From assembly GCA_044356435.1 (NCBI GenBank), contig JBIKWH010000001.1, forward strand, positions 1 to 30,708: a stretch of DNA of 30,708 bases, written 5' to 3'. Made by a program: the position numbers and the translations under genes. Every line of letters starts with the position of its first letter. The stretch's first letter is position 1. Origin of the DNA: Vicinamibacterales bacterium. Lineage in GTDB: Bacteria; Acidobacteriota; Vicinamibacteria; Vicinamibacterales; UBA2999. Shown here piece after piece: positions 1 to 30,708 of this stretch. The notes below the pieces were generated by a model, which saw nothing but the letters and a program-made list of their open reading frames with translations, was not told the origin of the DNA and made no database searches.

Positions 1-1500
1 GTCGCCAGCAGATGCTGACGAAGCGTGGCCACCAGGGTGTCTGTGTCAGTCGCATCCACGCCACCGCGTGACACGACGGCGGCCATCAATCTCGGTCCGA
101 GCGGCGACTGCTGCAGCACGACGGCCGCGGCGGCCACCTGCGGATGCCCGAGCAGCGCGTTCTCGATCTCGCCGACCTCGATGCGGAAGCCACGCAGCTT
201 GATCTGGTCGTCGAAGCGCCCGAGGAACTCGAGATCACCCTCGGCCCGTCGCGCCACACGGTCGCCCGTGCGGTACATTCGCGCGCCCAGCCGGGCCGCG
301 AAGGGATCGGGGATGAAGCGGTCCGCCGTCAGCGCGGGCAGGCCCACATAGCCGCGCGCCAGACCGTCGCCGCCGATGAAGAGCTCGCCCGCCACACCGA
401 CGGGCACGGGCTGGAGGGCGGCATCGAGCACATGCAATGTGGTGTTCGCAATCGGGTGGCCGATGGCGACGGCTGCGCCCGGGTTGCCCGCCACGCGGTC
501 CACGGCGGCACTCGCGTCGGCGACGCTGGACCAGATGGTCGTCTCCGTCGGTCCGTAGAGATTCCACACGCGACGGCACACCCGCGCGAGCCGGCTCGCG
601 AGCTCGAACGGTAGCGCCTCGCCGCCGCACAGCACCGTCAACGCCGGGTCGCCCGGCCAGCCGGATTCCAGCAGCATCTGCCAGGTGGCCGGCGTGGCCT
701 GCATCACCGTTGCGCCGGATTCGCGCAGCAGCGCCTGGAGGCGCACTCCGTCGCTGGCGGCCTCGCGTGTGGCGATCACGACCTGCGCGCCACACACCAG
801 CGGCAGGAAGAGTTCCAGACCCGCGATGTCGAACGAGAGCGTGGTCACGGCGAGCAGCACGTCGCCCGCGCCGAGGCCCGGCTCCCGCCGCATGGCCGTC
901 AGGAAGTTCACGAGCGCACGATGCTCGATCGCCACGCCCTTCGGCTTGCCGGTGGAGCCGGAGGTATAGAGCAGATAGGCCAGATCGCCCGACTGCGCCG
1001 CGCGCGCACTGCCGGAGTGAGCCGCGCCCGGCGGCGCGGCGCCGGGCCGCACTGCCGCGGCAGGCACCGCGTTCGGAGACGCCGCCACGGGAGCGCCCGT
1101 GCCGGAAGACACCGCACCGGAAGGCGCCGCGTCAGCAGAGAGCGCGTCGAGTGGCAGGAGTCGCGTGTCCGGGCCCGTGCGCGCCTCCCAGTCTGCCGCG
1201 AGCGTCGCCGTCGTCAGGATCATCCGTGCGCCCGAGTCTTCGACCATGTAGCGCAGCCGGTCCGCCGGAAACGCCGGATCGAGCGGCACGTAGGCCGCGC
1301 CCACGCCGTGAATCCCCAGGAGCACCGGGAGCAGCTCGATTGCGCGATCGAGATGGACGCCGACGACATCGCCAACCACAATGCCGCGGGCCGAGAGCGC
1401 GGCGGCCCATGCCGAGGCGCGGGTGAAGAGCGCCTCGTACGTCAGGCTCGCGCCGTCACAGCGGCAGGCCGCGCGGTCCGGAGATTCGGCGGCGACCGCG
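1..1500 (-). other. Adenylation domain, predicted Gly (truncated by window edge)
   Basis: Motifs AAYVPLDP, LAYLLYTSGSTGKPKG, SFDIAGLEL, MQATP, LCGGE, NLYGPTETTIWS, YRTGD, QIKLRGFRIE. Hand-extracted code DILQLGLIWK is the standard Gly signature. No insertion is seen after A8 up to the window edge. Confidence 0.88.
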
Positions 1501-4500
1501 CGCGCCAGGCTGAGCACCGTCGCGGACGACGGGTAGGGCGTGGCTGTTGCGTTCCATGTGGCGAGCGCCGTGGTTTCATCGGGCGTCAGCAGCGGCAGCG
1601 CGCCAATCGTCTGGTGCGGGTCCTCGGTCACGGCGTCGAGGATCCGCAGCAGGTGTCCGCCCATGCGGGCGATGCGTGCCTCCGCGAAGAGGTCCGTGTT
1701 GAACTCGATCCCGATGGCGAGCCCCCGCGCGGACTCCTTGAAGTTGAACGTCAGGTCCGCCTTGCTCGTGCCGTTGTGATCGAAGCAGGGCTGGCTCTCG
1801 AGGCCCTCGAGCGCCAGCGCGGACTCCTGCTGGTTCTGCAGGATCACGATCACGTCGAACACGGGCGAGCGCGAGAGGTCGCGGGGCAGATCCAGCTCAT
1901 CGACGAGGCGATCGAACGGGTAGGCCTGGTGGTCGTAGGCGGAGGTGGCCGTCGTCCGCACGGCGTCGAGCAGCCGCGTGAACGTGTCGCCGGGCCGCAC
2001 CGTGTCGCGCAGCGCCAGCATGTTCAGGTAGAAGCCGGCCTGCCCGTCCAGATCCGGATGCACGCGCCCGGCCACCGGCGTGCCCACGACGATGTCCTGC
2101 TCGCCGGTGTACCGATGGAGCAGCACCTTCACGCAGGCGCCGAGCAGCATGAAGAGCGAGACGTTGGCCGCGCGGGCCGCCGCCGACACGCGTTGCGCGG
2201 CGTCCGGTTCGAGGTGCCACGCAGCCTCGCGGCCGCGGAAGGTCTGGACGGCGGGTCTGGGCGCGTCCAGTGGAAGATCGAGCACCGGGGCGGCTCCGAG
2301 TTGCGCGAGCCAGTAGTCGCGCTGCGCACTGAGCCCGCCGGACTCCAACTGCGCCTGCTGCCAGCCCGCGTAGTCGCGATACTGCACGCGCAGTGCGGGC
2401 AGCGGCGGGGCCGCTCCGTTGCGGGCGGCCAGATAGAGCGCGGCGAGGTCGCTCCCGAGGATGCCGATGCTCACGCCGTCGCAGGCGATGTGATGCACGG
2501 TGAACAGCAGCACGTGCCGATCCGCCGCGAGACGGACGAGCGACACGCGAAGGGGCGACGCCGTGAGGTCGAACGCCGCTGCGGCGTCCTCCCGGGCCAG
2601 TTGCTGCGCGGCGGCTTCGCGATCGGGATCGGCCGTCAGGTCGATCACGCGCAGCGACACCGCGGCTGGCGGGTCCACCTGCTGCCGGGGTTCCCCGTCG
2701 ATGGTCACGATCCGTGTGCGGAGCACCTCGTGCCGCTGCACGAGCGCCGAGAGAGCGCGCTCCAGTGCCGGCACATCCAGGGGCCCGGTGAGCCGCTGGT
2801 GCAGCGGGATGTTGTAGGCCGCGGAGCCTTCAAGTTGCGTGAGCACCCAGAGCCGTCGCTGCGCGTGCGAGAGCGGGTAGCTCGCCGCGTCCGGCAGCGT
2901 CGGGATCGGGGCGTCGCTCCTGGCGTCGTGCGTGAGCGTCTCGATCAGCCGGGCCTGTGCGCGGACCGTCGGCGCCTCGAAGAGCGCCCGGAACGGCATG
3001 CGGTGACCGAAGCGCCGCTCGACCCGCGCGATGAGCTGCGTGCCAAGCAGCGAGTCGCCACCGAGGTCGGCGAAGGCGTCCGTCACGCCGATCGGGTGGA
3101 TGCCGAGCAGCGCCTCCCAGATGCCCGCGATGGCGCGTTCCGCCTCGGACTCCGGCGCCTCGAAGGCGGAGCCGGTCTCCGGCCGCGCGTGGGCGGCCGC
3201 CTGGGCGTTGTCCGCGCTGGCGGCGTCCAGCGATGGCGCGGTCGCGGATTCACCGGGCGTCGACGAGGCGTCTGCCGCGGGTTGGACCCAGCGCCGGAGT
3301 CGCGTCTGGAGGTCGCCCGCCGAGACGACGACCTGCGGCACGCCCGCGCTGAGCACGCGCTCGAAGGCGTCGCGGCATTCGGCGAGCGACATCGCGTAGC
3401 GATCGATGCTCGTCTGGAAGCCGGAATCGAAACCGCCCTCCGACTCGTTCGGCCAGCCGTCCCAGTTCGAGCTGATCCAGCGCCGGTCGCCCGTGCGCCG
3501 CCGCGCGGCGGCATAGGCGTCGAGATACCGGCTGGCCGCGGCGTACGCCGAGAGGCCGAGACCGCCGAGGATCGAGGCGTTCGAGGAGATCAGCAGGATG
3601 AAGTCGAGCGGCTCGTCCGCCAGGAGCGTGGCGAGCACCGTCGCGCCGCCTGCTTTGGGACGGAGGAGCGCGTCTACCTGCGCGGGCTCGGTGGCCTCGA
3701 TCGGATTGATGACGATCTCGCGCGCCGTCACGCCCGCCGCATGAATCACGCCATCGATGCGGCCGAAGCGCGTGCGCGCGGTGTCGAGCGCCGTGCGCAT
3801 CGCCGGCTCGTCCGCGACGTCCGCTTCGAGGACGAGCACCTCGGTGCCAGCGGCCCGCAGGCGGCGCACGGTCCGCACGGCATGCGGTTCCGCCCCGCCG
3901 ACTTGACCGACGACCAGACCGAAGTCGCCCGTGGCGGTGCCGTCGGGAGCGGGCCACGCCGCCACGTGCGCGAAGCCCGCCTGCCGGAACGCGTCGCGCC
4001 ACTCGGCCGCCCGCAGCAGTGGCGACTGCCGCGTCCGGAGGCCATCGCGGAACGCCCACCAGCCTTCGGCCAGTCCCCAGATGAAGTCCACCCAGCGCGG
4101 CGCCTGCATCGTCTCGACGATGGCGGCCACGCCGCCCGGCGCGAGCAACCGGCGCGCGTGGGTCAGCGTCTCCGGCAGGTCCGCCGTGGCGTGGAGGACG
4201 TCCAGCGCGAGCACGACATCGAACGATCCGGGCGCGAATCCCTGCGAAGCGGGATCGCGGCTGATGTCGAGCGTGCCGAAGCGCATGATCGGCGAGAGTC
4301 CCGCCGCGGCCGCGGATTGCTCGGCGCGTTGCACGAAGGTGCGGCCGATGTCGGTCGCGTGGTACTCGACGGGCAGATCCCTGAGCGCCGGCGCGAGCAC
4401 GCCCGCCAGGAGGCCGTCGCCGACGCCGATCTCGAGGACACGGAGCGTCCGGCCCCCACGCGCGCGCAGCTCGGCGAGCAGCAGCTCGCGCACCGCGCGG

Positions 4501-7500
4501 ATGTAGATGTCGCGCGTGCTGTGCGCCGCCGTGTTCGCCGCCGCCTGCTCCAGCCGCGTGGCCTCACCGTCCGGGTAGAGCACGCTGATCGCGGGAATCC
4601 GGCCCGAGAGCGCGTCCGGATAGTGGGCGACACAGTGTTCGAGCAGCTCGAACATGCCGGTGAACCGCGGGTACGCGGCGACGGCGGCGCGGTGCAGCTC
4701 CGCTGGCGGCGGAATGCTTCCGGCCGCGGCTGTGAACACCAGCCCGGTGCCCTCGCGTGCGAGCAGGCCGTCGTCCTCCAGCACCTGCCGGAAGTAGTCG
4801 CCCATGCGCGCCAGCGGCGCCACGATGCCGAGGTGCGACTTCAGCTCCGCGACGTCGAAGGTGGCCCCCGGCTGGACGCGCAGACCCGCCCTCCCCGCCA
4901 GCGCGAGGACGTGGCTCGCGCAGAGCCGGTCGATGGCCGATCCGAGCCCCGGGTAGGCGTCGATGCCCTTGATCGCGAGTGCACGCCTGGCCTCGGCGAT
5001 CGCGCCGGCAAGCCGCGCTTCCCGTGCGGCGAATGCCGTGGCGCCCGCCTTCTCCGCGTCGATGCCCGGATCGGACGCGAGCGCCGTCTCCACGGCCGAC
5101 GCGGACCGGCCGGTGAGCGCGACCTTCGCGCCATACCGGGTCGCCAGGTGCTCGGCCAGGATCAGGCCGACACCGCCGAGGCCGCCGGTGATGAGGTAAC
5201 TGCCGCCCTGCCGGATCGGTGCCCGCTGTTCCGCAGCCACGGTCACCGGCTCGAGGGCGCGGACCCAGCGGTGCCCGTGGCGCCACGCCACGGCACGCTC
5301 GCTGCCGCCGCCGATCTCGTCAACGAGCAGGCGCGTCAGGAATGCCGGGTCGTCCGCGCGCCATCCGGTGATGTCGAGCGTCCGGCACGTGACACCGGGG
5401 CGTTCCTGCGGGAGGACCATCAGCGGGCCCGCCATGGCAGCCTTGGCGGGATCGATCGGCTCCGCGCCGGTGACGTCCTCGATGAGATCCGTCACGACGA
5501 CGAGCGCGATGTCCCGCGTGGCGGCGGCGATCGCGCGACAGACTTCGAACTGACGCTGGATATCCGCGGGCGCGTCGAGTGTCGAGCAGTCGATGATGCG
5601 GACGGTGTCATCGGCGACCAGGCCAGCCGCGTCCGAGGCACTCGCGTCGACCACATCGTGGCCCTGGTCGCGCAGCGCCGCGATAAGCCGTGCGCCGACG
5701 CCGTGCGCGTCCGGCACGACGACCGTCCGCCCGGCGAAGGCGTCCGCGTCGGCGTGTGGCGGCAGGGCCCGCGTCCACGACGGGACGTAGAGCCACTGGC
5801 CGACGTCGCTCTTTCGAGCGGCTGTGATCGCGGAGGTGGGGTGCGCCGCGTCCGGCTTCGCCGGCTCCACCCAGTAGCGCTGGCGGGCGAACGGATAGCC
5901 CGGCAGCGGCACGCGTCGCCGTCGCTCGCCGCGATGCACGGCCGCCCAGTCCACCTTCGCGCCAGCCGTCCAGAGCCGCGCGAGGCCGTCGGCGAGCATG
6001 GCAGTGTCTTCCGTGGCTTCGTCCGCGTGGCGCAGCGAGCGCGCGAACACCCGGCCCGTTCCGCCGGGCTGCATGCGCACCAGCGTCGTCAGCGTGCGGC
6101 CGGGACCGGCCTCGAGGAACACCATGCCCGGGTCCTGCAGCAGTTGCTGCGCGGCGTGCGCGAACCGCACCGGCTCGCGCAGGTGCGAGGCCCAGTACGC
6201 GGGGTCGACGGCCTGCGCCGCCGTGACGGTCACTCCCGTCAGGTTCGACATCCAGAGTCGCTCGGGGGCGTGACGGGCCACACGCGAGACGCGCTCCGCG
6301 AACGCGTCGCGGATGGCGTCCATGGATCGTGAGTGGAATGCATGCGACGTCTCGAGCCGCCGCGTCTCGATGCCGCGAGCCGCCAAGGCGGTGCTCAGCC
6401 GGTCGACCGCCTCGACGGGGCCTGAGACCACCGTCCGCGCGGGCGCGTTGATCGCGGCAATCGAGAGGTCGTCGCCGAGCAGCGGCTCGAGCTCGGTGGC
6501 CCCGAGCGGCACCGCCGCCATCGCGCCGGCAGGCAGCGCGTGCATGAGCGCCGCGCGTGCCGCGACCAGCGCGAGCGCGTCTTCAAGCGCGAACACGCCG
6601 GCCAGCGTGGCCGCGACCAGCTCGCCCAGGCTGTGGCCGAGCATCGCGTACGGCTCGATGCCCCACGACATCCACAGGCGTGCCGTCGCGTATTCGATGG
6701 CAAAGAGCGCGGGCTGCGCGTAGCGCGTCGATGTCAGCGACCCGGGCGCGCCGCCGTGCAGCAGCCCTCTGATGTCGAGGCCGAGTGCCGGTTGCAGCAG
6801 CGAGGCGCAGCGGTCGATGTCCGCGCGGAAGAGCGGCTCGCGGTCGTAGAGGCCGCGCCCCATGCCCACGAACTGTGTGCCCTGCCCGGGAAACAGGAAC
6901 GCCACGCGCGGCGGCGCCCCGGTGGACCGTCCCGAGATGGACGTCGCCACGTCGGCGGACTCCAGCCGCGCCACGGCGTCGAGGCGATCGGTGGCCACGA
7001 TCACGCGCCGGTGATCGAAGGCGCGCCGGCCCTGCTGCAGCGTCCAGGCGACGTCGGCCAGTGGCACATCGGGATGCGCGCGCAGATGCGCCGCGAGGTT
7101 GATGGCCTGCTGCGCGAGCGCCTCCGCGGAGCGCGCGGAGAGCGCCAGCACCTGCGGACCGTCTGCCTCGCTCTCCGGATTGGCCGCCGGGGCTTGTTCG
7201 AGCACGACGTGCGCGTTGGTGCCTCCGATGCCGAACGCGCTCACGCCCGCGCGCCGCGGACCATCCGACTCCCACGGCCGTGCCGAGGCGTTGACGACAA
7301 ACGGCGTGGAGCTGAAATCGATCTCGGGGTTCGGCGCCGTGAAGTGCAGGCTCGGTGGGATCGCGCCGTGCTCCAGCGCGAGCACCGTCTTGATCAGCCC
7401 CGCGACGCCGGCCGCTTCGTCGAGGTGGCCGACGTTGCTCTTCACCGAGCCGATCGCGCAGAAGCCGCTGCGCGCCGTGCGCAGCCGGAAGGCCTGCGTG

Positions 7501-8527
7501 AGCGCGGCGATCTCGATCGGATCACCGACCGGCGTGCCCGTCCCGTGCGTCTCGATGTACTGAATCGAGTCCGGTTCCACGGCGGCCACCGCGAGCGCTT
7601 CGGCGATGACCTCCGCCTGACCGTCGACACTCGGCGCCGTGTAGCCCACCTTCGCCGCGCCGTCGTTGTTCACGGCCGAGCCGCGGATGATGGCGTGGAT
7701 CGTGTCGCCGCTCTCGAGCGCGTCGGTCAGCCGCTTCAGCACGACCACGCCGACGCCGTTGCCGCTCACCGTGCCCTGGGCGCGCGCGTCGAACGGGCGG
7801 CAGTGGCCGTCCGGCGAGGCGATGCCACCGGTCTCGTAGCGATAGCCGACGTGCTGCGGCACCTGGATGCCGACACCGCCGGCCAGCACCATGTCGGCGT
7901 GGTAGTCGAGCAGGCTCTGGCACGCGAGGTGAACGGCCACCAGGGACGAGGAACACGCCGTGTTGACGTTGATGCTCGGGCCCTTCAGGTCCAGCTTGTA
8001 GGAGACGCGCGTGGGCACGTAGTCCTTGTTGTTCGCAATCGAGAGCTGCACCGGCGCGACGCGCGCGAGGATGTCGGGTCGCGCGAGCAGGTTGTGCAGC
8101 AGGTAGGTGCTGAACCCGGCGCCGGCGAACACGCCGATCCGTCCCTCGAAGCCGTGCGGGTGATAGCCGGCGTGTTCGAGCGCGTGCCACGCGCACTCCA
8201 GAAAGAGCCGGTGCTGCGGGTCGGTGATCTCGGCTTCGAGCGGCGGCATGCCGAAGAAGCCGGCGTCGAACCGGTCGATGCCGTCGAGCACGCCGTTGGC
8301 TCGGACGTAGGCCGAGTCGGCGAGCGTCGCCGCGTCCACGCCTGCCGCGCGCAGGGCCTCGTCCGTGAAGCGCGTGATGCCCTCGCGTCCCTCGATCAGG
8401 AGACGCCAGTACGCGTCGAGGTCGGGCGCGCCGGGAAAGCGGCCTGCCATCCCGACGATCGCGACCGCGCGCGCGTCATCCAGCACAGCGCCATCCGGAG
8501 CGGTGTGCGCAGACCGGTGGGCGTCGC

Positions 8528-8531
<4 letters not shown>
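1..8531 (-). CDS. Hybrid PKS-NRPS, C-terminal end outside window: KS-AT-KR[cMT]-ACP-C-A(Gly)...
   Basis: Not in the ORF track because it has no stop inside the window. GTG at 8531 overlaps the TGA of the upstream NRPS (GTGA) and follows GGAAGGA at 8538-8544. Hand translation begins MSDAHRSAHTAPDGAVLDDARAVAIVGMAGRFPGAPDLDAYW. KS, AT, KR, MT, C and A motifs all fall in the same frame, and no track ORF terminates in this frame. 2843 codons to the edge, ending ...LRQHLLA in the A subdomain. Confidence 0.96.
1005..1139 (-). repeat. Degenerate in-frame 15-nt (5-aa) tandem repeat, about 9 units, in the A2-A3 loop of the Gly A domain
   Basis: Units read SADAA/PSGAV/SSGTG/APVAA/SPNAV/PAAAV/RPGAA/PPGAA/HSGSA. 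The first six each begin with an NCT codon (TCT, CCT, TCT, GCT, TCT, CCT), which is unusual for this codon bias. Confidence 0.6.
1590..2880 (-). other. Condensation domain following the PKS ACP
   Basis: YPLSHAQRRLWVL...YNIP, HHIACDGVS (H at 2495), AGFYLNMLALR, YPFDRLVDEL, SKADLTFNF. Confidence 0.9.
2950..3150 (-). other. Carrier domain (ACP) of PKS module 2
   Basis: IWEALLGIHPIGVTDAFADLGGDSLLGTQL; Ppant Ser codon at 3051-3053. Confidence 0.88.
3330..5210 (-). other. Ketoreductase catalytic subdomain, split by an inserted methyltransferase
   Basis: N-part SYLITGGLGGVG...ALTGR at about 5105-5205. C-part VLVLEADVAD...GVIHAAG...RPK...ISSNAS...SAYAAAS at about 3530-3890. Confidence 0.88.
3890..5100 (-). 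other. PKS-type C-methyltransferase domain nested in KR
   Basis: YPRFTGMFELLEHC...SVLYPDG, VLEIGVGDG (4413-4439), YHATDI, LDISRDP...FDVVLALDVLHAT, LLAPGG...IVET, WGLAEGWW. These are hallmarks of cis-AT PKS cMT domains, including the HAT histidine and the downstream Glu. Confidence 0.88.
6000..6910 (-). other. Acyltransferase, malonyl-CoA type (PKS module 2)
   Basis: FPGQG, YAQPALF, LGHSLGE (about 6624-6641), TSHAFHS (H at 6344). Confidence 0.9.
7195..8470 (-). other. Ketosynthase, NRPS-accepting hybrid type (PKS module 2)
   Basis: DPQHRLFLE, NNKDY...VSYKLDLKGPS, VNTACSSS (Cys 7953-7955), ETHGTGT, KSNVGHL, SAFGIGGTNAH. The C-H-H triad is intact. Confidence 0.93.
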
Positions 8532-23850
<15,319 letters not shown>

Positions 23851-23854
<4 letters not shown>

Positions 23855-24003
23855 GCGAGGGTGCCGGATCTGGAATGGGTGACGAATGCGGGACAGCTCC
23901 CCCCGAACCCGCCGGCAACAGAGGTTTCTGCGGTGTGAGGGGACTGCGGCAACGATATCACCTCAGCCGAAACGCGTTCAACGCGCGGACACGCCGGGAT
24001 CAC
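23851..24003 (-). CDS. Putative 50-aa bridging mini-ORF (possible translational-coupling element, may be non-functional)
   Basis: GTG at 24003 overlaps the PKS TGA (24002-24000), and TGA at 23853-23851 overlaps the NRPS GTG (23854). GGAG lies 7 nt upstream. Peptide MIPACPRVERVSAEVISLPQSPHTAETSVAGGFGGSCPAFVTHSRSGTLA. GC3 is only 35/50 and no family is recognised. Confidence 0.3.
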
Positions 24004-27000
24004 GCGGTCTCTCCCGTCTTGTCGTCGTCTGCCGCCGCGAGCAGCAGCGCGGCTTCTTCATCCGTCAGGTCTCCGACGTCGGCCAGCACGGCTTCGAGCT
24101 GCTGCCGCGCGACGGCGGCACCGAGCGCGCCGATCGTCGGCGTCTCGAAGAAGGTCGTCAGCGTCACGCGCACACCGAGCTGGTCGCGCACGCGCGAGAG
24201 CACCTGTGTCGCCAGCAGTGAATGTCCGCCGAGTTCGAAGAAATCGTCGTGAATGCCGACCTCCGCGATGCCCAGGAGCGTCTGCCAGATGCGGCAGAGC
24301 GCCTCTTCCTGTGGCGTGCCTGGCGGTGCGAACGCCACGGCGAGCGCCGGTCGCGCATGGCCGGGCCCGCGGCGATCGATCTCGGTAACGGCCTGCGCGG
24401 CCACGTCCGCGTCGCGGCGCGCGCGTGCCACCGGATCGCGCGTCGAGACGACCACCTGAGTCAGGTCGCTCGCGAGCACGCGCGCCAGCACGGCCACCGC
24501 CTCGGCGTTGCGGATGCCGGACCGCAGACTCTCCTCGCGGAGGCGCTGAAGTGCACCGGGCAGCCGCACGTCGACCGCCATGCCGGCTTCCTGCCACGTG
24601 TCCCAGTCGATGCTGACGACCCGCTTCCCCGAGGCGCGCTGCTCGTGCGCGAGCGCATCGAGCACGGCGCCGGCGGCGCAATAGTCGACCTGCCCGGCGT
24701 CGCCGAGGATCCCGGTCAGCGACGACACGAACACCATGACGTCCAGATCCGTCGAATCGAACACGCGCAGAAGGTTCAGGGCGCCCTGCACCTTCGGACG
24801 CAGGACGGCCTCGATGTCCTCGCGCGTCTTGCGCTGGAGCATGCCGCCCGCGGGGACGCCCGCCGCGTGAATCACGCCGTGCACGGGCCCGAAGCGCTGC
24901 TCCGCTTCGCGAACCGCCGTGCGGAGCGCGTCGAGATCTCCGACGTCGGCGGCCAGCATGCACACCTGCCCGCCCGCGGCCTCGATGGCCTGGATCTGCC
25001 GGATCTGCCCGGCGACCGTCGAGCCGGTGCCACCCGCCAGCGCCGCCGGCCAGGTGTCACGCGCGGGGAAGGGCGTGCGGCCAAGCAGGGAGAGGCGCGC
25101 GCCGCAGTTGGCGGCCAGGTGCGCGGCGATCACAAGGCCGACGCCCCCGAGGCCGCCGGTCACGAGATAGTGCCCGCCCGTCCGTAACGAGGTCGCGGGC
25201 GAAACGTCCGGCAGCGCCACCCGCTCGAGCGTGCGCTCGAGCCGCTGATGATTGCGATACGCGACCCACGGCGTGTCCGCGGCGGACCGCAGTTCGCGAT
25301 AGAGCCGGTCGACGAGCGCGTCGCCCGCGTGGACGGAGGCGCCGTCGTAGTCGATGCTGCGGCAGCGGATCGCGGGCAGCTCCTTCGGGACGACCAGCAC
25401 CGGGCCGGCCACCGCGGCCCGCAGCGGCACGAGACGCGGGTCGCCCGGCACGGCCTGCATGCGCGAGGACAGGACGTCGATCCGGATCTCGCCCTCGACA
25501 TCGGCCAGCGCGCGCGCCAGCCACGTCACGCTCAAGAAGCCGCACTCGAGCGCATCGCGGTCGTTGGCGTCGGGACTGTCGACGGACCACGCATGCAGCA
25601 CGCGCGTCGGCACCTGCCCAACGCGCCGGAGTTCCGCGATGAGCGCGTCGTAGTCCTCTCGGCAACCGGGCCGGAGCGCGTACTGCCGATCGCCACGACG
25701 TAGAAACGCCGCGCCGGGCGTGACGAGGACGGGCTCCGCGCCGTCGCGACGTAGGCGCGCGAGCAGCCCGGCCGCCACGGTCTCGCCGTCCAGGGCGCAG
25801 ACGAGCCACGTCTCGCCGGCAGTCTCGGTCGTGGCGTCGGCGGCGCGAGCCGGCGCGGGCGCGCTTTTCCAGACGGGCACGTGGAACCACTCGTCGAGCG
25901 GCCGTTTCGTCACGCCGTCATCGACGGTGGGCACCGCGTGGCGATCGCCGGCGGTCCCGGCGTTCGCACTCCCCGCGGCGGCTGACGAGCCCGGCACGGG
26001 CGGCTCGACCCAGTACCGCTGCCGCTCGAATGGATACGTCGGCAGCGCGAGGCGTCGCCGCTCGCGACCCGTGTCGATCGCATCCCACGCGATCTCCACA
26101 CCGGCTGCCCACAGGCGGCCGAGCGTCCGCATGAGGACGTCCTGGTCGCGCGCGCGTTCACGGGCGTGCGTCAGCGTGGGAAGGACGATCGCGTCGCCAG
26201 CAGCAGGCTGCCCGCGCGTCGCCTCGATGTCCGGCTCGGGCGCCGCCGCAAGAGCCAGCGTGCCGAGCGTGCGCCCCGGGCCGACTTCCAGCAGCACCGG
26301 GTGCGGCAACTGACGTGCGCAGGCCACACCGGCCGAGAAGAGCACGGCATGCCGCAGGTGGCGCACCCAGTACGCCGGATCGACGGCATCGGCGGCGCTG
26401 ATCCAGGTGCCGGTGACGTTCGAGATCCACGGCGTCGAGGGCGGCGTCAGCGTCACGCGCGCGACGGCCGCGCCGAACGCGCTGAGGACGGGATCCATGG
26501 ACGGCGAATGGAACGCATGCGACGTGTGGAGGTCGTGGCACTCGATCCCCCGCGACGCGCACAGGCGTTCGAGCGCCGCCACCGCCTCAGGCGGTCCGGA
26601 TGCGACGCACAACCCCGGCGCGTTGATGGCGGCAATGGTCACGCCGTCCGGCAGCAGCGCGGCCGTCTCGTCGGGCGTCGCCCGCACGGCGACCATCCGC
26701 CCGCCGGGAAGCTGCTGCATCAGCCGGCCCCGCTCCACAACGAGCGCGAGCGCGTCCTCCATCGTGAGCGTGCCAGCGACGCAGGCGGCGACGAACTCGC
26801 CGAGGCTGTGGCCGATGAGGCCGGCGGGCGTGAGGCCCCACGCGCGAAGCTGTTGGGCGAGCGCGTACTCGACGATGAAGAGCGCCGGCTGCGCGACGGC
26901 CGTCTGCGTGAGGCGCGCCGAGGCCTCGGGCGTGACGGCCTCCGCGCGCAGCAGCGCGCGCAGCTCCCCGCCGAACGAGCCGAGCCGCGCGCAGCAGGCG

Positions 27001-28649
27001 TCGACGATCGCCCGGAACTCCGGCGCGACGCCGTAGAGCCCGGCGGCCATGCCCGGCGTCTGCGCGCCCTGACCGGGGAACATGAACACGACCGACCGCG
27101 CGCGGGCGACATCGCGATCGCCGTCCCCGCGCAGCAGCGTGGCCGATGCCGCGTCGGTGCCCGGGGCCGTCACCGCGAGGCGGTAGGCAAACGCATGACG
27201 GCCGTTCTGGAGCGACCACGTCGCATCGGCGAGGTCGGTTTCAGGCGCGTCCGCGAGCGCCTGCCCGACGGCCCGTGCGTGTGCGTCGAGCGCGGCCTCG
27301 CTGCGGGCCGAAAGCACGAGCGGCGTGATCAGCCGCGCGGCCGGCCGCGCTTCCACGGGCGGTGCCTCTTCCAGGATCACGTGCGCGTTGGTGCCGCCGA
27401 TGCCGAAGGAGCTGACGCCCGCGCGGGCCGGCTTGTCACCCGCCGGCCACGCTTCCACCCGCGCGCTCACGCGGAACGGGCTGCGCGCGAGATCGAGCTG
27501 CGGGTTGGCGGCGGTGAAGTGCAGCGTCGGTGGAATCTCGCGGTGCTTCAGCGCGAGCACCGCCTTGATGAACCCGGCGACGCCCGCGGCGGTATCGAGA
27601 TGGCCGACATTGGTCTTGAGCGCGCCGAGCACGCAGGAACCAGGGACCAGGTCCGACCCCGCGAACGCCTGCGTGAGCGCGGCCACCTCGATCGGATCGC
27701 CCAGCGGCGTGCCCGTGCCGTGCGCCTCGACGTACCCGATCGACGCCGGATCCACGCCCGCGACGGCCAGGGCCTCGCTGATCACCGCGCGCTGGCCGTC
27801 GACGCTCGGCGCCGTGTAGCCGACCTTCAACGCGCCGTCGTTGTTGATGGCGGAGCCGAGCACGACCGCGTCGATCCGATCACCGTCGGCGAGCGCATCC
27901 TCGAGCCGCTTGAGGACGACGATCCCCGCGCCGCTGCCGGGCACGGTGCCCGCGGCCTGCGCGTCGAAGGCGCGGCAGTGGCCGTCGGGCGAGAGGATCA
28001 TCCCCTCTTCGTACAGGTAGCCCGCATGCTGCGGCACGCGCACGGAGACGCCGCCGGCCAGGGCGATGTCGCACTCGCCCCCGAGCAGCGCGTTGCAGGC
28101 CAGGTGCACGGCGACCAGCGATGTCGAGCACGCGGTCTGCACGGTCACACTCGGCCCGCGCAGGTTCAGCTTGTAGGAGACGCGCGTCGGCAGAAAGTCC
28201 TTGTCGTTACTGATGAGCGCCTGGAAGCCGCCGGCCGAGGCCAGCGCCTCGCGTTGCGGGATCAGGTTTGCCAGCAGATACGCGTTCATCCCCGCACCGG
28301 CGTACACGCCGATCGCGCCGCCGTAGCGCTGGGGATCGCATGCGGCATCCTCGAGCGCCTGCCACGCGCACTCCAGGAAGAGGCGATGCTGCACGTCGAG
28401 GATCTCGGCCTCCCGCGGGCTGAAGCCGAAGAGCGCCGCGTCGAACTGCTCGATGTCGTCGAGCACGGCCGCCGCCTTCACATAGTGCGGATGGCTCAGC
28501 AGTTCGGAGGCGACGCCCGCCGCGCGCAGTTGCGCGTCGCTCAGCGTGGTGATCGACTCGACCCCAGCGCGCAGGTTGCGCCAGAACACCTCCGGTGTGC
28601 GGGCACCGGGTACGCGGCAGGCGAGGCCGATGACGGCGATGCCGCTCAT
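24000..28649 (-). CDS. Type I cis-AT PKS module, 1549 aa: KS-AT(malonyl)-KR-ACP
   Basis: KS (about 27365-28640) SNDKDF, VQTACSTS (Cys 28128-28130), EAHGTGT, NVGHL. AT (about 26250-27090) GHSLGE, HAFH. KR TGGLGGVG, HAAG, VDYCAAG. Carrier DFFELGGHSLL (about 24120-24310). No DH, ER or MT. ATG overlaps the upstream TGA (ATGA). Confidence 0.96.
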   Translation of the reverse strand: MSGIAVIGLACRVPGARTPEVFWRNLRAGVESITTLSDAQLRAAGVASELLSHPHYVKAAAVLDDIEQFDAALFGFSPREAEILDVQHRLFLECAWQALEDAACDPQRYGGAIGVYAGAGMNAYLLANLIPQREALASAGGFQALISNDKDFLPTRVSYKLNLRGPSVTVQTACSTSLVAVHLACNALLGGECDIALAGGVSVRVPQHAGYLYEEGMILSPDGHCRAFDAQAAGTVPGSGAGIVVLKRLEDALADGDRIDAVVLGSAINNDGALKVGYTAPSVDGQRAVISEALAVAGVDPASIGYVEAHGTGTPLGDPIEVAALTQAFAGSDLVPGSCVLGALKTNVGHLDTAAGVAGFIKAVLALKHREIPPTLHFTAANPQLDLARSPFRVSARVEAWPAGDKPARAGVSSFGIGGTNAHVILEEAPPVEARPAARLITPLVLSARSEAALDAHARAVGQALADAPETDLADATWSLQNGRHAFAYRLAVTAPGTDAASATLLRGDGDRDVARARSVVFMFPGQGAQTPGMAAGLYGVAPEFRAIVDACCARLGSFGGELRALLRAEAVTPEASARLTQTAVAQPALFIVEYALAQQLRAWGLTPAGLIGHSLGEFVAACVAGTLTMEDALALVVERGRLMQQLPGGRMVAVRATPDETAALLPDGVTIAAINAPGLCVASGPPEAVAALERLCASRGIECHDLHTSHAFHSPSMDPVLSAFGAAVARVTLTPPSTPWISNVTGTWISAADAVDPAYWVRHLRHAVLFSAGVACARQLPHPVLLEVGPGRTLGTLALAAAPEPDIEATRGQPAAGDAIVLPTLTHARERARDQDVLMRTLGRLWAAGVEIAWDAIDTGRERRRLALPTYPFERQRYWVEPPVPGSSAAAGSANAGTAGDRHAVPTVDDGVTKRPLDEWFHVPVWKSAPAPARAADATTETAGETWLVCALDGETVAAGLLARLRRDGAEPVLVTPGAAFLRRGDRQYALRPGCREDYDALIAELRRVGQVPTRVLHAWSVDSPDANDRDALECGFLSVTWLARALADVEGEIRIDVLSSRMQAVPGDPRLVPLRAAVAGPVLVVPKELPAIRCRSIDYDGASVHAGDALVDRLYRELRSAADTPWVAYRNHQRLERTLERVALPDVSPATSLRTGGHYLVTGGLGGVGLVIAAHLAANCGARLSLLGRTPFPARDTWPAALAGGTGSTVAGQIRQIQAIEAAGGQVCMLAADVGDLDALRTAVREAEQRFGPVHGVIHAAGVPAGGMLQRKTREDIEAVLRPKVQGALNLLRVFDSTDLDVMVFVSSLTGILGDAGQVDYCAAGAVLDALAHEQRASGKRVVSIDWDTWQEAGMAVDVRLPGALQRLREESLRSGIRNAEAVAVLARVLASDLTQVVVSTRDPVARARRDADVAAQAVTEIDRRGPGHARPALAVAFAPPGTPQEEALCRIWQTLLGIAEVGIHDDFFELGGHSLLATQVLSRVRDQLGVRVTLTTFFETPTIGALGAAVARQQLEAVLADVGDLTDEEAALLLAAADDDKTGETA
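24010..24015 (-). promoter_or_regulatory. Shine-Dalgarno-like GGGAGA upstream of the GTG at 24003
   Basis: Inside the PKS terminal codons (ACG GGA GAG ACC GCG TGA), with spacing like the 8531 junction. Confidence 0.4.
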
Positions 28650-30708
28650 GACTTCTGCGGCGCTCCGTGCCGATGTTCGAGGCGGGCGCGTCGCCGATCG
28701 GCCTGGGCCGACGCGTCCAGCCGCCGTGTCGCGCGGCGATCGTCCTGCGGCGCATCCGTGGCCGGTGCGTCCTGCCCGAGATGACGGGCGAGCAGATGCA
28801 CCGTCGGATGCTGGAACAGGTCGACGAGTGTCAGGTGCGGGGCGCCGGACTTCTGCAGGCGCGCGTGGACCTGCGCGAGCATCAGCGACTGCCCGCCGAG
28901 CTCGAAGAAGTTGTCGTGCACGCCGACCCGCTCGAGGCCGAGCACCTCTTGCCAGACGGCTGCGACCCGCTGCTCATCCGCGGTCGAGGGCGCCGCGAAC
29001 GCGCTGTCCAGCCGGGGACGCTCGGTCGGCGGATCCGGCAGCGCCCTGCGATCGAGCTTGCCGTTCGGCGAAAGCGGCAGCGCCGGCAGCCACACGAAGA
29101 CCGCGGGGACCATGTAGTCCGGCAGCGTCTGTCGCAGAAAGCGGTGCAGCTCGGTGGTCGAGGGTGGCGTCCCGGTCGCGACCGCGTAGGCGATGAGACG
29201 CGCGTCGCCGCCCGTCTGCTGCGCCGGCACGACCGCCGCCTCGCGGATGCCCTCGTGCTCGGCCAAGCGGGCTTCAATCTCGCCCAGCTCGATGCGGAAC
29301 CCGCGGATCTTGACCTGATTGTCGAAGCGGCCCAGATAGACGACGTCGCCGCTGGCGCGCCAGCGCGCGCGGTCGCCGGTGCGGTACATCCGGCTTCCGG
29401 GGGGACCGAACGGATCCGGCACGAAGCGATCGGCCGTGAGGTCGGGCCGGCGGTGATAGCCGCGGCCGACGTTGACGCCGCCGATGCACAGCTCGCCGGA
29501 GACGCCGATCGGGCACGCGTGCCACGCGGCATCCACGATGTGGATCTGCGTGTTGGCGATCGGCGCGCCGATCGGCACGACGTCGAGATCCTCCGCGCTG
29601 CACGGCCACCACGTCACGTCGATGGCGGCCTCGGTGGGCCCGTAGAGGTTGTGCACGTCGGCGCCGAGTGTCGCCAGTGCCTGACGCGAGAGATCCGGCG
29701 GCAGCGCCTCGCCGCTGCAGATGACGCGGCGGAGCGACGGGAAGGCGCCCAGCTCCAGCTGCTCGAGGAACGCCCGCAGCATCGACGGCACGAAGTGCAG
29801 CGTCGTGACGCCCTCGGCGCGCATGATCCCGGCCAGATACGCCGGATCCTGATGTCCGCCCGGCTTGCAGACGACGAGCCGCGCGCCCGTCATCAGCGGC
29901 CACACGAACTCCCACACCGAGACATCGAAGCTGAACGGCGTCTTCTGCAGCACCACGTCCGAGGCGTCAAGCCGATAGGCCTTCTGCATCCAGGTGATGC
30001 GGTTGCACAGCCCGCGGTGGGTGTTCATCGCGCCCTTTGGACGGCCCGTCGAGCCGGACGTGTAGATCATGTAGGCGAGGTTCGCGGGTCCCGGCTCGCT
30101 GGCCGCCGCGCCTGCTGCCGGTGCGGCCTTCCGCCGTTCGGGCGGCGCGTTCGCCGTCAGCAGGATCGCGACGTCCGCGTCGACGAGCATGAATTCCAGG
30201 CGCTCGCGCGGATAGTCGGGGTCGAGCGGCACGTACGCGGCACCCGCCTTGAGCACGGCGAGGATGGAGACGACGAGCTCGGGCGAACGGTGCATGCAGA
30301 TGCCGACGAGCACCTCGGGTCCGGCACCGAGCGCCTGCAGCTCACGCGCGAGCGCGTCCGCGCGGTCGTGCACCTCGCGGTACGTCCACCGCGATCCCTC
30401 GAACACGACGGCGACGGCGTCAGGCGTGCGCCGCGCCTGCTCGTCGATCAGCGTGTGGATGCAGACATCCTCCGGAAACGGCGCCGCCGTGGCGTTCCAC
30501 TGCGCGAGCTGGGCGGCTTCCGCGGCCGGGAGCGGCACAAGGGAATCGACGCGGGCGGCCGGGTCGGCGCACACGGCCCGCAGGAGCGCCACGAACTGCC
30601 CCGCGATGCGTCCCGCGCTCGCCCGCTCGAAGAGCCCGGTGCTGTAGCGCAGCACGCCGCTGAGCGGATCAGCGTCGGTGATCTCGAGCGTCAGATCGAA
30701 CTGGCCTT
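28646..30708 (-). CDS. NRPS 3' portion, N-terminus outside window: [C]-A(Ser)-T
   Basis: The frame is open to the right edge (GQFDLTLEI...VLRYSTGLF is the end of a C domain), so the track start at 30655 is an internal Val. FDVSVWEF, TLHFVP, VICSGE, NLYGPTEAAIDV give code DVWHISLIDK (Ser). T domain NFFELGGQSL. Confidence 0.94.
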   Translation of the reverse strand, partial: GQFDLTLEITDADPLSGVLRYSTGLFERASAGRIAGQFVALLRAVCADPAARVDSLVPLPAAEAAQLAQWNATAAPFPEDVCIHTLIDEQARRTPDAVAVVFEGSRWTYREVHDRADALARELQALGAGPEVLVGICMHRSPELVVSILAVLKAGAAYVPLDPDYPRERLEFMLVDADVAILLTANAPPERRKAAPAAGAAASEPGPANLAYMIYTSGSTGRPKGAMNTHRGLCNRITWMQKAYRLDASDVVLQKTPFSFDVSVWEFVWPLMTGARLVVCKPGGHQDPAYLAGIMRAEGVTTLHFVPSMLRAFLEQLELGAFPSLRRVICSGEALPPDLSRQALATLGADVHNLYGPTEAAIDVTWWPCSAEDLDVVPIGAPIANTQIHIVDAAWHACPIGVSGELCIGGVNVGRGYHRRPDLTADRFVPDPFGPPGSRMYRTGDRARWRASGDVVYLGRFDNQVKIRGFRIELGEIEARLAEHEGIREAAVVPAQQTGGDARLIAYAVATGTPPSTTELHRFLRQTLPDYMVPAVFVWLPALPLSPNGKLDRRALPDPPTERPRLDSAFAAPSTADEQRVAAVWQEVLGLERVGVHDNFFELGGQSLMLAQVHARLQKSGAPHLTLVDLFQHPTVHLLARHLGQDAPATDAPQDDRRATRRLDASAQADRRRARLEHRHGAPQKS

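What the first reader, a model, noticed from the sequence alone, without database searches (positions are those of the whole stretch)
3330..5210. C-methyltransferase inserted inside the Rossmann fold of the catalytic KR subdomain
Seen: the KR NADPH motif (YLITGGLGGVG...LTGR) is followed by about 400 aa of complete cMT (about 5100-3890) before the KR resumes (LRAAG-EVLVLEADV...HAAG...K...S...Y). The other PKS in this window is an internal control: there the same two points (LLGR...IEAAGGQVCMLAADV) are only about 25 aa apart. Established: in well-studied cis-AT modules such as CurJ the cMT is inserted near the start of the structural (psi-KR) subdomain, upstream of the NADPH-binding motif. Inference: this is a different insertion site that splits the cofactor-binding fold, possibly an independent MT acquisition and a natural domain-insertion site. 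Similar split KRs may already exist in databases.
Basis: partly seen in the sequence, partly recalled or inferred. Interest (0 to 1): 0.72.

Follow-up and report, generated by a model that had tools for sequence, protein, structure and literature searches.

The report
Methyltransferase nested inside a ketoreductase fold
In this antibiotic-type assembly-line enzyme, a complete methyl-adding domain is spliced into a surface loop of the neighbouring reducing domain; the layout is real and occurs in many bacteria, including the published tubulysin enzyme TubF, but I found no paper describing it.

Summary
The minus-strand hybrid PKS-NRPS gene (window 3-8531) reads KS-AT-psiKR-KR(b1-aA-b2)-cMT-KR(rest)-ACP-C-A. 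About 406 residues carrying a complete CurJ-like C-methyltransferase lie between strand b2 (..LTGRS) and the helix before b3 of the catalytic ketoreductase. In the window's other KR the same two points are 21 residues apart.

An AlphaFold model (pLDDT 91.6) rebuilds a complete psiKR+KR from the two segments (Z about 36 against EryKR1 and TylKR1). The MT forms a separate lobe (Z 38.9 against CurJ cMT). No second glycine motif follows the MT. The cofactor and catalytic motifs of both enzymes are intact.

The layout is not unique:
- 122 homologous modules gathered here share the same entry and exit points.
- 55 of the 150 nearest 50%-identity MT cluster representatives have it.
- One is tubulysin TubF, whose product needs both activities.

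It is confined to one KR family and one MT clade. On the KR tree the split members do not form one clade (AU p 6.5e-5). Yersiniabactin HMWP1 and a second PKS in this genome have the conventional MT-psiKR-KR order. Ten literature searches found no description. Earlier reports of this scan noted the same layout in other genomes.

Verdict: a real, widespread, little-documented topological variant of moderate interest.

The parts
3..8531 (-). Hybrid PKS-NRPS gene (P0001, 3' end runs off the window): KS-AT-psiKR-KR(N)-cMT-KR(C)-ACP-C-A
   Evidence: ORF list, translation, Pfam scan. The full protein in the database is 2992 aa (P0005).
7341..8471 (-). Ketosynthase (residues 21-397)
   Evidence: Pfam ketoacyl-synt and Ketoacyl-synt_C, E 8.6e-74 and 3.4e-43.
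6084..6899 (-). Acyltransferase (residues 545-816) with GHSLGE and HAFH motifs. By established AT fingerprints this predicts malonyl specificity.
   Evidence: Pfam Acyl_transf_1, E 5.7e-58; motif positions. The specificity is an inference.
5232..5819 (-). Structural KR subdomain (psiKR, about residues 905-1100)
   Evidence: It aligns with the psiKR region of P0003. Model residues 13-205 are part of the region that superposes on solved psiKR+KR structures.
5103..5210 (-). KR catalytic subdomain, N-terminal segment (residues 1108-1143): strand b1, TGGLGGVG NADPH loop, helix aA, strand b2 ending in LTGRS
   Evidence: The profile built from 72 homologues hits residues 1105-1143. BLASTP to P0003 runs up to LLGRT. 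The model has strands at 216-220 and 241-246 and a helix at 225-238, with pLDDT of 95 or more.
3885..5102 (-). Nested insertion (residues 1144-1549): a linker of about 20 aa, a complete C-methyltransferase (lid helices plus class I SAM core, motif I at 1366-1373, H1447 and E1473), and a short exit linker
   Evidence: Pfam Methyltransf_12 and Methyltransf_23. CurJ cMT 5THY scores 177 bits by sequence. By structure it gives Z 38.9, rmsd 2.7 A and 369 aligned residues over model 271-651. H552 and E578 of alignment A1 are invariant in 72 sequences.
3273..3884 (-). KR catalytic subdomain, C-terminal segment (residues 1550-1753): helix before b3, b3 with EADVAD, HAAG, K1625, S1649/S1650, Y1663
   Evidence: Pfam KR positions 32-178 at residues 1542-1693. 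Profile hit at 1551-1755, 240.7 bits. Motif coordinates.
2943..3134 (-). Acyl carrier protein (residues 1800-1863, GGDSL at 1824)
   Evidence: Pfam PP-binding, E 1.4e-14.
3..2882 (-). Downstream NRPS module, condensation (residues 1884-2323) and adenylation (2345 to the window edge)
   Evidence: Pfam Condensation E 5.2e-111 and AMP-binding E 1.5e-81.
24393..25190 (-). Internal control: the unsplit KR of the other PKS in the window (P0003 residues 1154-1419), with 21 aa between the points that are 406 aa apart in P0001

Best explanation
This is a cis-AT PKS extension module inside a PKS-NRPS hybrid. A complete SAM-dependent C-methyltransferase is nested in the loop between strand b2 and the following helix of the catalytic ketoreductase Rossmann fold.

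Shown by sequence and by the predicted structure:
- The two KR segments fold together into a normal psiKR+KR.
- The MT hangs off as a separate lobe, joined by two short variable linkers.
- The catalytic motifs of both enzymes are intact.

Inferred: the malonyl-specific AT supplies an unbranched extender. The KS makes a beta-ketoacyl-ACP. The nested cMT methylates the alpha carbon once or twice. The split KR then reduces the beta-keto group. Because there is no DH, this gives an alpha-methyl-beta-hydroxy unit, which passes to the downstream condensation domain.

The layout belongs to a widespread class. It is restricted to one KR family in which psiKR and KR follow the AT directly, and any DH and ER come after the KR. 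Tubulysin TubF is a member of this class.
For: Topology:
- Pfam KR is split into positions 1-31 and 32-178 around Methyltransf_12.
- BLASTP to the in-window control KR gives two collinear blocks.
- The gap is 406 aa here, 21 aa in the control, and a median of 4 aa in 252 unsplit KRs.
- No glycine motif follows the MT.

Fold:
- The AlphaFold2 model built on 72 homologues has mean pLDDT 91.6 and pTM 0.83.
- VIA-align puts model 264-653 on the CurJ, DszA and PksCT C-methyltransferases, with Z 37.6-38.9.
- It puts model 13-858 on TylKR1, EryKR1 and AmphKR2. Of about 455 target residues, 414-432 align at 2.8-3.4 A, with Z about 36.

Catalytic residues:
- The SAM motif I, H1447 and E1473 are invariant in alignment A1. 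They are spaced 26 residues apart, as I recall for the CurJ and PksCT His-Glu dyads.
- The KR G-loop and the SS and Y positions are at least 90% conserved.

Recurrence:
- 122 modules share the same entry and exit points, with a median insert of 419 aa (range 346-482).
- 55 of the 150 best MT-only representatives have the split.

Function: TubF (P0030) reads KS-AT-psiKR-KR(N)-MT-KR(C)-DH-ER-ACP-TE. From my own knowledge, its product unit, tubuphenylalanine, is alpha-methylated and fully reduced. That requires both the nested MT and the split KR to work.
Against: - No biochemical data exist for this protein, and the gene is truncated at the window edge.
I could not measure how the two active sites face each other, or confirm residue by residue that b1-b2 sits in the sheet. 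This rests on 414-432 of about 455 KR residues aligning.
- The insertion begins right after the GRS residues, which in SDR-type KRs help bind the NADPH 2'-phosphate. Altered cofactor affinity is therefore possible.
- The KR has YAAAS where most relatives have YxAAN.
- Mono- versus gem-dimethylation and KR stereochemistry are not predicted.
- The malonyl call for the AT rests on a motif rule.
Confidence: 0.82

Rival explanations
1. The glycine-rich segment before the MT belongs to the structural psiKR. The real catalytic KR, with its own NADPH motif, starts after the MT, so this would be a conventional MT-KR order.
For: In conventional modules the MT does sit N-terminal to KR material. This holds for HMWP1, for a second PKS in this genome, and for BlmVIII as described in PMC2613160.
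Against: - No [TS]GGxGxx[GA] motif lies within 600 aa after the MT.
- After the MT, Pfam KR starts at profile position 32.
- The pre-MT segment aligns with b1-aA-b2 of the control catalytic KR.
- A separate psiKR of about 200 aa lies upstream.
Confidence: 0.02
2. The KR is a dead scaffold. The insertion broke NADPH binding, and the KR remnants serve only to hold the MT, so the module would deliver an alpha-methyl-beta-keto unit.
For: The insertion begins right after the GRS residues involved in 2'-phosphate recognition. The P0001 KR reads YAAAS instead of the family's YxAAN. Some MT relatives sit in modules with no recognisable KR at all, for example P0152 with KS-AT-MT-ACP-TE.
Against: - The G-loop, EADVAD, HAAG, K, SS and Y are all present in P0001. 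Most of them are at least 90% conserved across 72 split homologues, which points to purifying selection on catalysis.
- The model keeps the full KR fold.
- TubF's fully reduced product requires its split KR to act (plus my own knowledge).
Confidence: 0.1
3. The inserted domain is an O-methyltransferase (StiD, StiE or CurL type) that methylates the beta-hydroxyl produced by the KR. It would not be a C-methyltransferase acting before reduction.
For: PKS O-MTs share the class I fold and are also embedded next to KRs. Sequence alone does not prove regiochemistry.
Against: - The best sequence and structure matches are all C-methyltransferases: CurJ, DszA/DisA, PksCT, LovB and AprA MT2.
- The His and Glu at the positions of the C-MT dyad are invariant.
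- The TubF homologue makes a C-methyl group (my own knowledge).
Confidence: 0.05
4. The arrangement is an assembly or gene-fusion artefact of this metagenome-assembled genome.
For: The genome is a fragmented MAG: 480 contigs, 67% complete.
Against: The gene is one uninterrupted 2843-codon frame. The same arrangement, with the same junctions, occurs in 122 independent proteins from isolates and metagenomes.
Confidence: 0.01

Closest known systems
TubF of the tubulysin assembly line (Archangium disciforme, UniRef Q5ZPA6; P0030)
   Same: It has the same nested topology, KS-AT-psiKR-KR(N)-cMT-KR(C), with the same entry and exit points. It belongs to the same KR family and the same MT clade. The 601-aa query is 41% identical over 98% of its length.
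   Different: TubF continues with DH-ER-ACP-TE and ends the line. The window's module has no DH or ER and feeds an NRPS module. I could not read the tubulysin papers to see how they drew the KR and MT boundary.
Conventional MT-containing cis-AT modules: CurJ (PDB 5THY), yersiniabactin HMWP1, bleomycin BlmVIII
   Same: Same chemistry and domain set: a SAM-dependent C-MT with a His-Glu dyad together with psiKR, KR and ACP. CurJ cMT is the best solved match to the insert (177 bits; Z 38.9).
   Different: In these modules the MT lies N-terminal to psiKR and the catalytic KR is continuous. HMWP1 has MT at 903-1253, psiKR at 1442-1540 and KR-C at 1601-1762. BlmVIII is described this way in PMC2613160. 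Cyanobacterial modules with the conventional MT-psiKR-KR order form a separate MT clade and a separate KR clade. HMWP1 and CurJ themselves were not placed in either tree.
Trans-AT PKS KR-MT-ACP modules (for example DszA/DisA MT, PDB 6CCA; bacillaene PksJ KR, PDB 4J1Q)
   Same: The KR-C segment's best solved sequence match is the trans-AT PksJ KR (98.6 bits), and DisA MT is the second-best MT match.
   Different: There the MT follows an intact KR. These MTs and KRs fall in other clades.
Interrupted NRPS adenylation domains (MT inserted between motifs A8 and A9)
   Same: The principle is the same: a whole methyltransferase nested in a loop of a host catalytic domain that still folds and works. 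The neighbouring NRPS gene in this window appears to carry such inserts.
   Different: The host fold and the MT families are different. That case is well described (PMC2613160, PMC8341866), whereas I found no description of the KR-nested case.
ER inserted between psiKR and KR in fully reducing modules and in mammalian FAS
   Same: It is also a large domain inserted within the KR region of a megasynthase (solved examples appear: 5BP4, 2VZ8).
   Different: The ER sits between the two KR subdomains and leaves each Rossmann-like fold continuous. Here the insertion cuts through the catalytic fold itself, after b2.

Membership tests
PKS C-methyltransferase (CurJ, PksCT or LovB type) | Class I SAM-binding motif I (ExGxGxG) and the acidic residue after strand 2 | tested here: met
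   LEIGVGDG at 1366-1373 and D1394. E472, G474, G476 and D499 of alignment A1 are invariant. Pfam Methyltransf_12, E 7.7e-16.
PKS C-methyltransferase (CurJ, PksCT or LovB type) | Catalytic His-Glu dyad | tested here: met
   H1447 and E1473 are invariant in 72 homologues and lie 26 residues apart. That these are the dyad positions rests on my recollection of CurJ H916/E942 and PksCT H2067/E2093.
PKS C-methyltransferase (CurJ, PksCT or LovB type) | Fold with an N-terminal helical lid plus the MT core | tested here: met
   VIA-align gives Z 38.9 and rmsd 2.7 A, with 369 of 387 residues of 5THY aligned. It gives Z 37.6 to PksCT CMeT 5MPT.
PKS C-methyltransferase (CurJ, PksCT or LovB type) | Alpha-C-methylation of beta-ketoacyl-ACP | not testable with these tools
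   This needs an enzyme assay. It is supported only by analogy with TubF chemistry.
Type I PKS ketoreductase (psiKR plus catalytic SDR subdomain) | TGGxGxxG NADPH loop and the K/S/Y catalytic residues | tested here: met
   TGGLGGVG at 1115-1122, K1625, S1649/S1650 and Y1663. Pfam KR E 2.6e-39, in two stretches.
Type I PKS ketoreductase (psiKR plus catalytic SDR subdomain) | Complete two-subdomain fold | tested here: met
   The model aligns 414-432 of about 455 residues of TylKR1, EryKR1 and AmphKR2 at 2.8-3.4 A, Z about 36, spanning model 13-858 across the insert. This is a predicted structure only.
Conventional MT-containing cis-AT module (CurJ, HMWP1, BlmVIII) | MT placed N-terminal to psiKR, with a continuous catalytic KR | tested here: not met
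   In P0001 psiKR and KR b1-b2 precede the MT. HMWP1, tested as a control, does show MT, then psiKR, then KR.
Trans-AT type KR-MT module | MT C-terminal to a complete KR | tested here: not met
   About 200 residues of KR, including all catalytic residues, follow the MT.
KR-nested cMT modules (TubF-like; a class defined here) | Insertion of 346-482 aa between the b2 GRS residues and the helix before b3, in the KR family where psiKR-KR follows the AT directly | tested here: met
   The insert in P0001 is 406 aa and its junctions align column for column with the 71 other rows of A1, and by profile ends with all 122 split modules. Both KR rows of the window fall in the 99*-supported KR family clade.

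The most novel reading that the evidence does not exclude
The b2-to-helix loop of this KR family is a recurrently used, portable docking site for one mobile lineage of C-methyltransferases. The MT has been gained, lost or recombined at exactly this point at least three times. It has also moved between this site and the pre-psiKR site. The nested geometry holds the MT and KR active sites side by side, so that methylation precedes reduction on one ACP visit. If this is right, the junctions would serve as a ready-made template for grafting C-methylation into KR-containing PKS modules.
Probability: 0.3. Interest if true: 0.65.

Novelty: new variant of a known kind. Interest (0 to 1): 0.5.

Why it matters
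1. Annotation. Domain callers see only the C-terminal 150 residues of such KRs. They report 'cMT-KR', which hides the true boundaries; cutting at the apparent MT/KR border would remove b1-b2 and the NADPH loop.

2. Engineering. Nature shows that a Rossmann-fold KR tolerates a 400-residue domain after b2, with short variable linkers. Closely related KRs exist with and without the insert, including a matched pair in this window. That gives concrete junctions for adding or removing C-methylation.

3. Evolution. One MT lineage occupies at least three contexts: nested in the KR, before psiKR, and with no KR. The split state is polyphyletic on the KR tree, which makes this a tractable case of domain mobility in megasynthases.

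4. The characterised tubulysin enzyme TubF belongs to the class, so functional tests are within reach.

Tried and rejected
- Literature. All ten allowed full-text searches found no paper describing an MT inside the catalytic KR. They used combinations of C-methyltransferase, ketoreductase, inserted, embedded, split, nested, Rossmann, CurJ, TubF, KRc/KRs and AlphaFold. Ansari et al. 2008 (PMC2613160) list TubF but place PKS MTs only in AT-KR, DH-ER or DH-KR linkers, with psiKR after the MT. The key subscription papers were not held: Skiba 2016 on CurJ, Keatinge-Clay Chem Rev 2017 and Sandmann 2004 on tubulysin. A prior description there cannot be excluded.
- Plasmid collection. No record covers 80% or more of the KR(N)-MT-KR(C) query, so no split example was found on plasmids.
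- Genome-contig scan. It cannot be used for prevalence.
- Single-sequence phmmer classification left many domains as 'other'. It was replaced by profiles built from A1.
- Model coordinates are not exposed, so active-site distances and the MT-KR interface could not be measured.
- The plus-strand ORF 921-6332 (1803 aa) overlaps the gene. I treat it as an antisense shadow frame of 72% GC DNA, because all family evidence is on the minus strand.
- A second NADPH motif after the MT was searched for and not found.

Full report
**What is in the window**

The window has 71-73% G+C. It carries four collinear minus-strand genes:
- an NRPS tail (28646-30706);
- a KS-AT-psiKR-KR-ACP PKS (24000-28649, P0003);
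- a 5108-aa NRPS (8528-23854, P0002);
- a PKS-NRPS hybrid that runs off the window (3-8531, P0001).

Pfam reads P0001 as KS, AT, KR, Methyltransf_12, PP-binding, Condensation and AMP-binding.

Pfam KR matches in two stretches. The main one (residues 1542-1693) covers only profile positions 32-178, and the MT (1366-1468) lies between the two stretches.

- the YLITGGLGGVG motif at 1112-1122 and LTGRS at 1139-1143;
- MT motif I at 1366;
- LRAAGTEVLVLEADV at 1558;
- then HAAG, K1625, S1649/S1650 and Y1663.

BLASTP against the in-window control KR gives two collinear blocks that abut in P0003 but lie about 380 residues apart in P0001. With profiles built from 72 homologues, the distance between the end of the KR-N profile and the start of the KR-C profile is:
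- 406 aa in P0001;
- 21 aa in P0003;
- a median of 4 aa in 252 unsplit KRs;
- a median of 419 aa (range 346-482) in 122 split KRs.

No second glycine-rich dinucleotide motif follows the MT. A separate psiKR of about 200 aa lies upstream.

**Structure**

I built an AlphaFold2 model of residues 896-1765 on alignment A1 (72 sequences). It has mean pLDDT 91.6 and pTM 0.83. Its secondary structure shows:
- b1 at model 216-220, helix aA at 225-238 and b2 at 241-246;
- then helices that lead into the MT;
- the last MT strand at 642-648;
- then the KR helix at 655-665 and b3 at 670-674.

VIA-align gives two clean, non-overlapping sets of matches:
- Model 264-653 matches the solved C-methyltransferases: CurJ Z 38.9 at 2.7 A, DszA Z 38.2 and PksCT Z 37.6.
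- Model 13-858 matches whole psiKR+KR structures: TylKR1, EryKR1, AmphKR2 and others. Z is about 36, with 414-432 of about 455 target residues aligned at about 3 A.

Foldseek agrees. So the predicted KR is complete and is assembled from two sequence segments, and the MT is a separate lobe. I could not obtain coordinates, so the MT-KR interface was not analysed.

**Are both enzymes likely active?**

- MT: motif I, H1447 and E1473 are invariant across the 72 aligned homologues. The His and Glu are 26 residues apart, the spacing I recall for the CurJ and PksCT dyads.
- KR: the G-loop, the SS pair and the Tyr are at least 90% conserved. P0001 reads YAAAS where the family has YxAAN.
- AT: it has GHSLGE and HAFH. 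By the usual fingerprint rule this means malonyl, so any alpha-methyl group must come from the MT.
- Solved relatives: by sequence the closest are CurJ cMT (177 bits) and DisA MT for the insert, and the trans-AT PksJ KR for KR-C.

**How common is it?**

A word-indexed search with residues 1100-1700 returned 1208 hits, and many of the best covered 98-99% of the query. Classification with KR-N, MT and KR-C probes found the split in about 70 of those proteins.

An unbiased HMMER search of 1.84 billion cluster representatives, using the MT alone, gave 9309 hits at E up to 0.001. Among the best 150 proteins, 55 clearly have the nested layout and a handful more are truncated versions of it. Over everything gathered, 122 MT domains are nested, all with the same entry and exit points.

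Named carriers include:
- TubF of Archangium disciforme;
- Archangium violaceum, Cystobacter ferrugineus and Sorangium;
- Hahella chejuensis;
- Variovorax;
- Vicinamibacterales and gammaproteobacterial MAGs.

Pfam reads TubF as KS-AT-...-KR(positions 37-178, split)-DH-ER-ACP-TE, with the MT before the KR-C part. From my own knowledge, its product unit, tubuphenylalanine, is C-2 methylated and fully reduced. That requires both the nested MT and the split KR to work.

**Controls with the conventional order**

- Yersiniabactin HMWP1, fetched from a Klebsiella plasmid, has MT at 903-1253, then psiKR at 1442-1540, then KR-C at 1601-1762.
- A second PKS in the same genome (contig C407) has MT, then psiKR, then an unsplit KR.
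- Ansari et al. 2008 describe BlmVIII the same way.

**Evolution**

On a quick maximum-likelihood tree of 134 MT domains, the nested MTs fall in one clade (SH-aLRT 99). The clade also holds some MTs from modules without a KR and ten MTs that sit before psiKR. It is separate from the clade of cyanobacterial MT-psiKR-KR and trans-AT KR-MT domains.

On a tree of 130 KR-C segments:
- All split KRs lie inside one KR family (support 99), together with many unsplit KRs, including P0003.
- In this family psiKR-KR follows the AT directly, and any DH and ER come afterwards.
- Within the family the split state needs at least three changes on well-supported branches.
- The window's KR sits in a subclade (support 98) dominated by unsplit KRs.

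An AU test rejects a tree with all 45 split KRs held together (delta lnL 140.6, p 6.5e-5). One caveat is that I named the group after seeing the first tree. Another is that recombination inside the KR could produce the same signal. Without a root I cannot say whether these changes are repeated insertions, repeated precise losses or cassette exchange.

**Prior knowledge**

Ten full-text searches found no description of an MT nested in the catalytic KR. The most relevant subscription papers were not available. Earlier reports of this scan noted the same layout in other genomes and likewise found no description. I treated these as leads and re-tested the claims here.

**Verdict**

The finding is real and correctly interpreted. 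It is not unique to this window. It is one member of a widespread, apparently undocumented topological variant of C-methylating PKS modules, and that variant already includes a characterised enzyme. It is of moderate interest, mainly for annotation and for PKS engineering.

Noticed in passing
own genome, contig C407 (L088:1132-6708, + strand): The same genome encodes a second MT-containing PKS with the conventional order: MT ending at about aa 1258 of the ORF, psiKR at 1330-1465, KR-N at 1475-1510 and KR-C at 1518-1699. One organism therefore uses both MT positions. A third MT lies at the contig end (about 9354-10343).
   Followed up: partly
window 8528-23854 (-), P0002: The 5108-aa NRPS appears to carry two other nested methyltransferases inside adenylation domains. 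One is FkbM-like (VDVGANIGLF...) and one is N-MT-like (RVLEIGCGTGL...). Both are visible in the translation and were also noted by first readers. I did not analyse them.
   Followed up: no
P0030 (TubF), P0032, P0037, P0038, P0043, P0047: In this KR family the reductive domains run KR, then DH, then ER after the AT, rather than the textbook DH-ER-KR order. P0032 has the same order but with the MT before psiKR and an unsplit KR.
   Followed up: partly
P0152, P0149, P0136 (relatives): Close relatives of the nested MT occur in KS-AT-MT-ACP-TE modules without any KR (P0152). They also occur in modules with about 350 aa before and about 215 aa after the MT that no longer score as KR (P0149). These may be decayed split KRs.
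   Followed up: partly
window 8528-8531 and 28646-28649: Adjacent megasynthase genes overlap by 4 nt at stop and start (ORF ends), which suggests translational coupling. The 24000/23854 junction instead has a gap of about 145 nt.
   Followed up: no
window 921-6332 (+): An 1803-codon open frame lies antisense to the PKS gene. I take it to be a shadow ORF of high-GC coding DNA, not a gene (all Pfam evidence is on the minus strand).
   Followed up: partly
whole genome G000: The source is a fragmented MAG: 2.5 Mb, 480 contigs, 67% complete. The closest named relatives of the protein come from Vicinamibacterales (Acidobacteriota) and Gemmatimonadaceae MAGs. The organism itself was not identified.
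   Followed up: no
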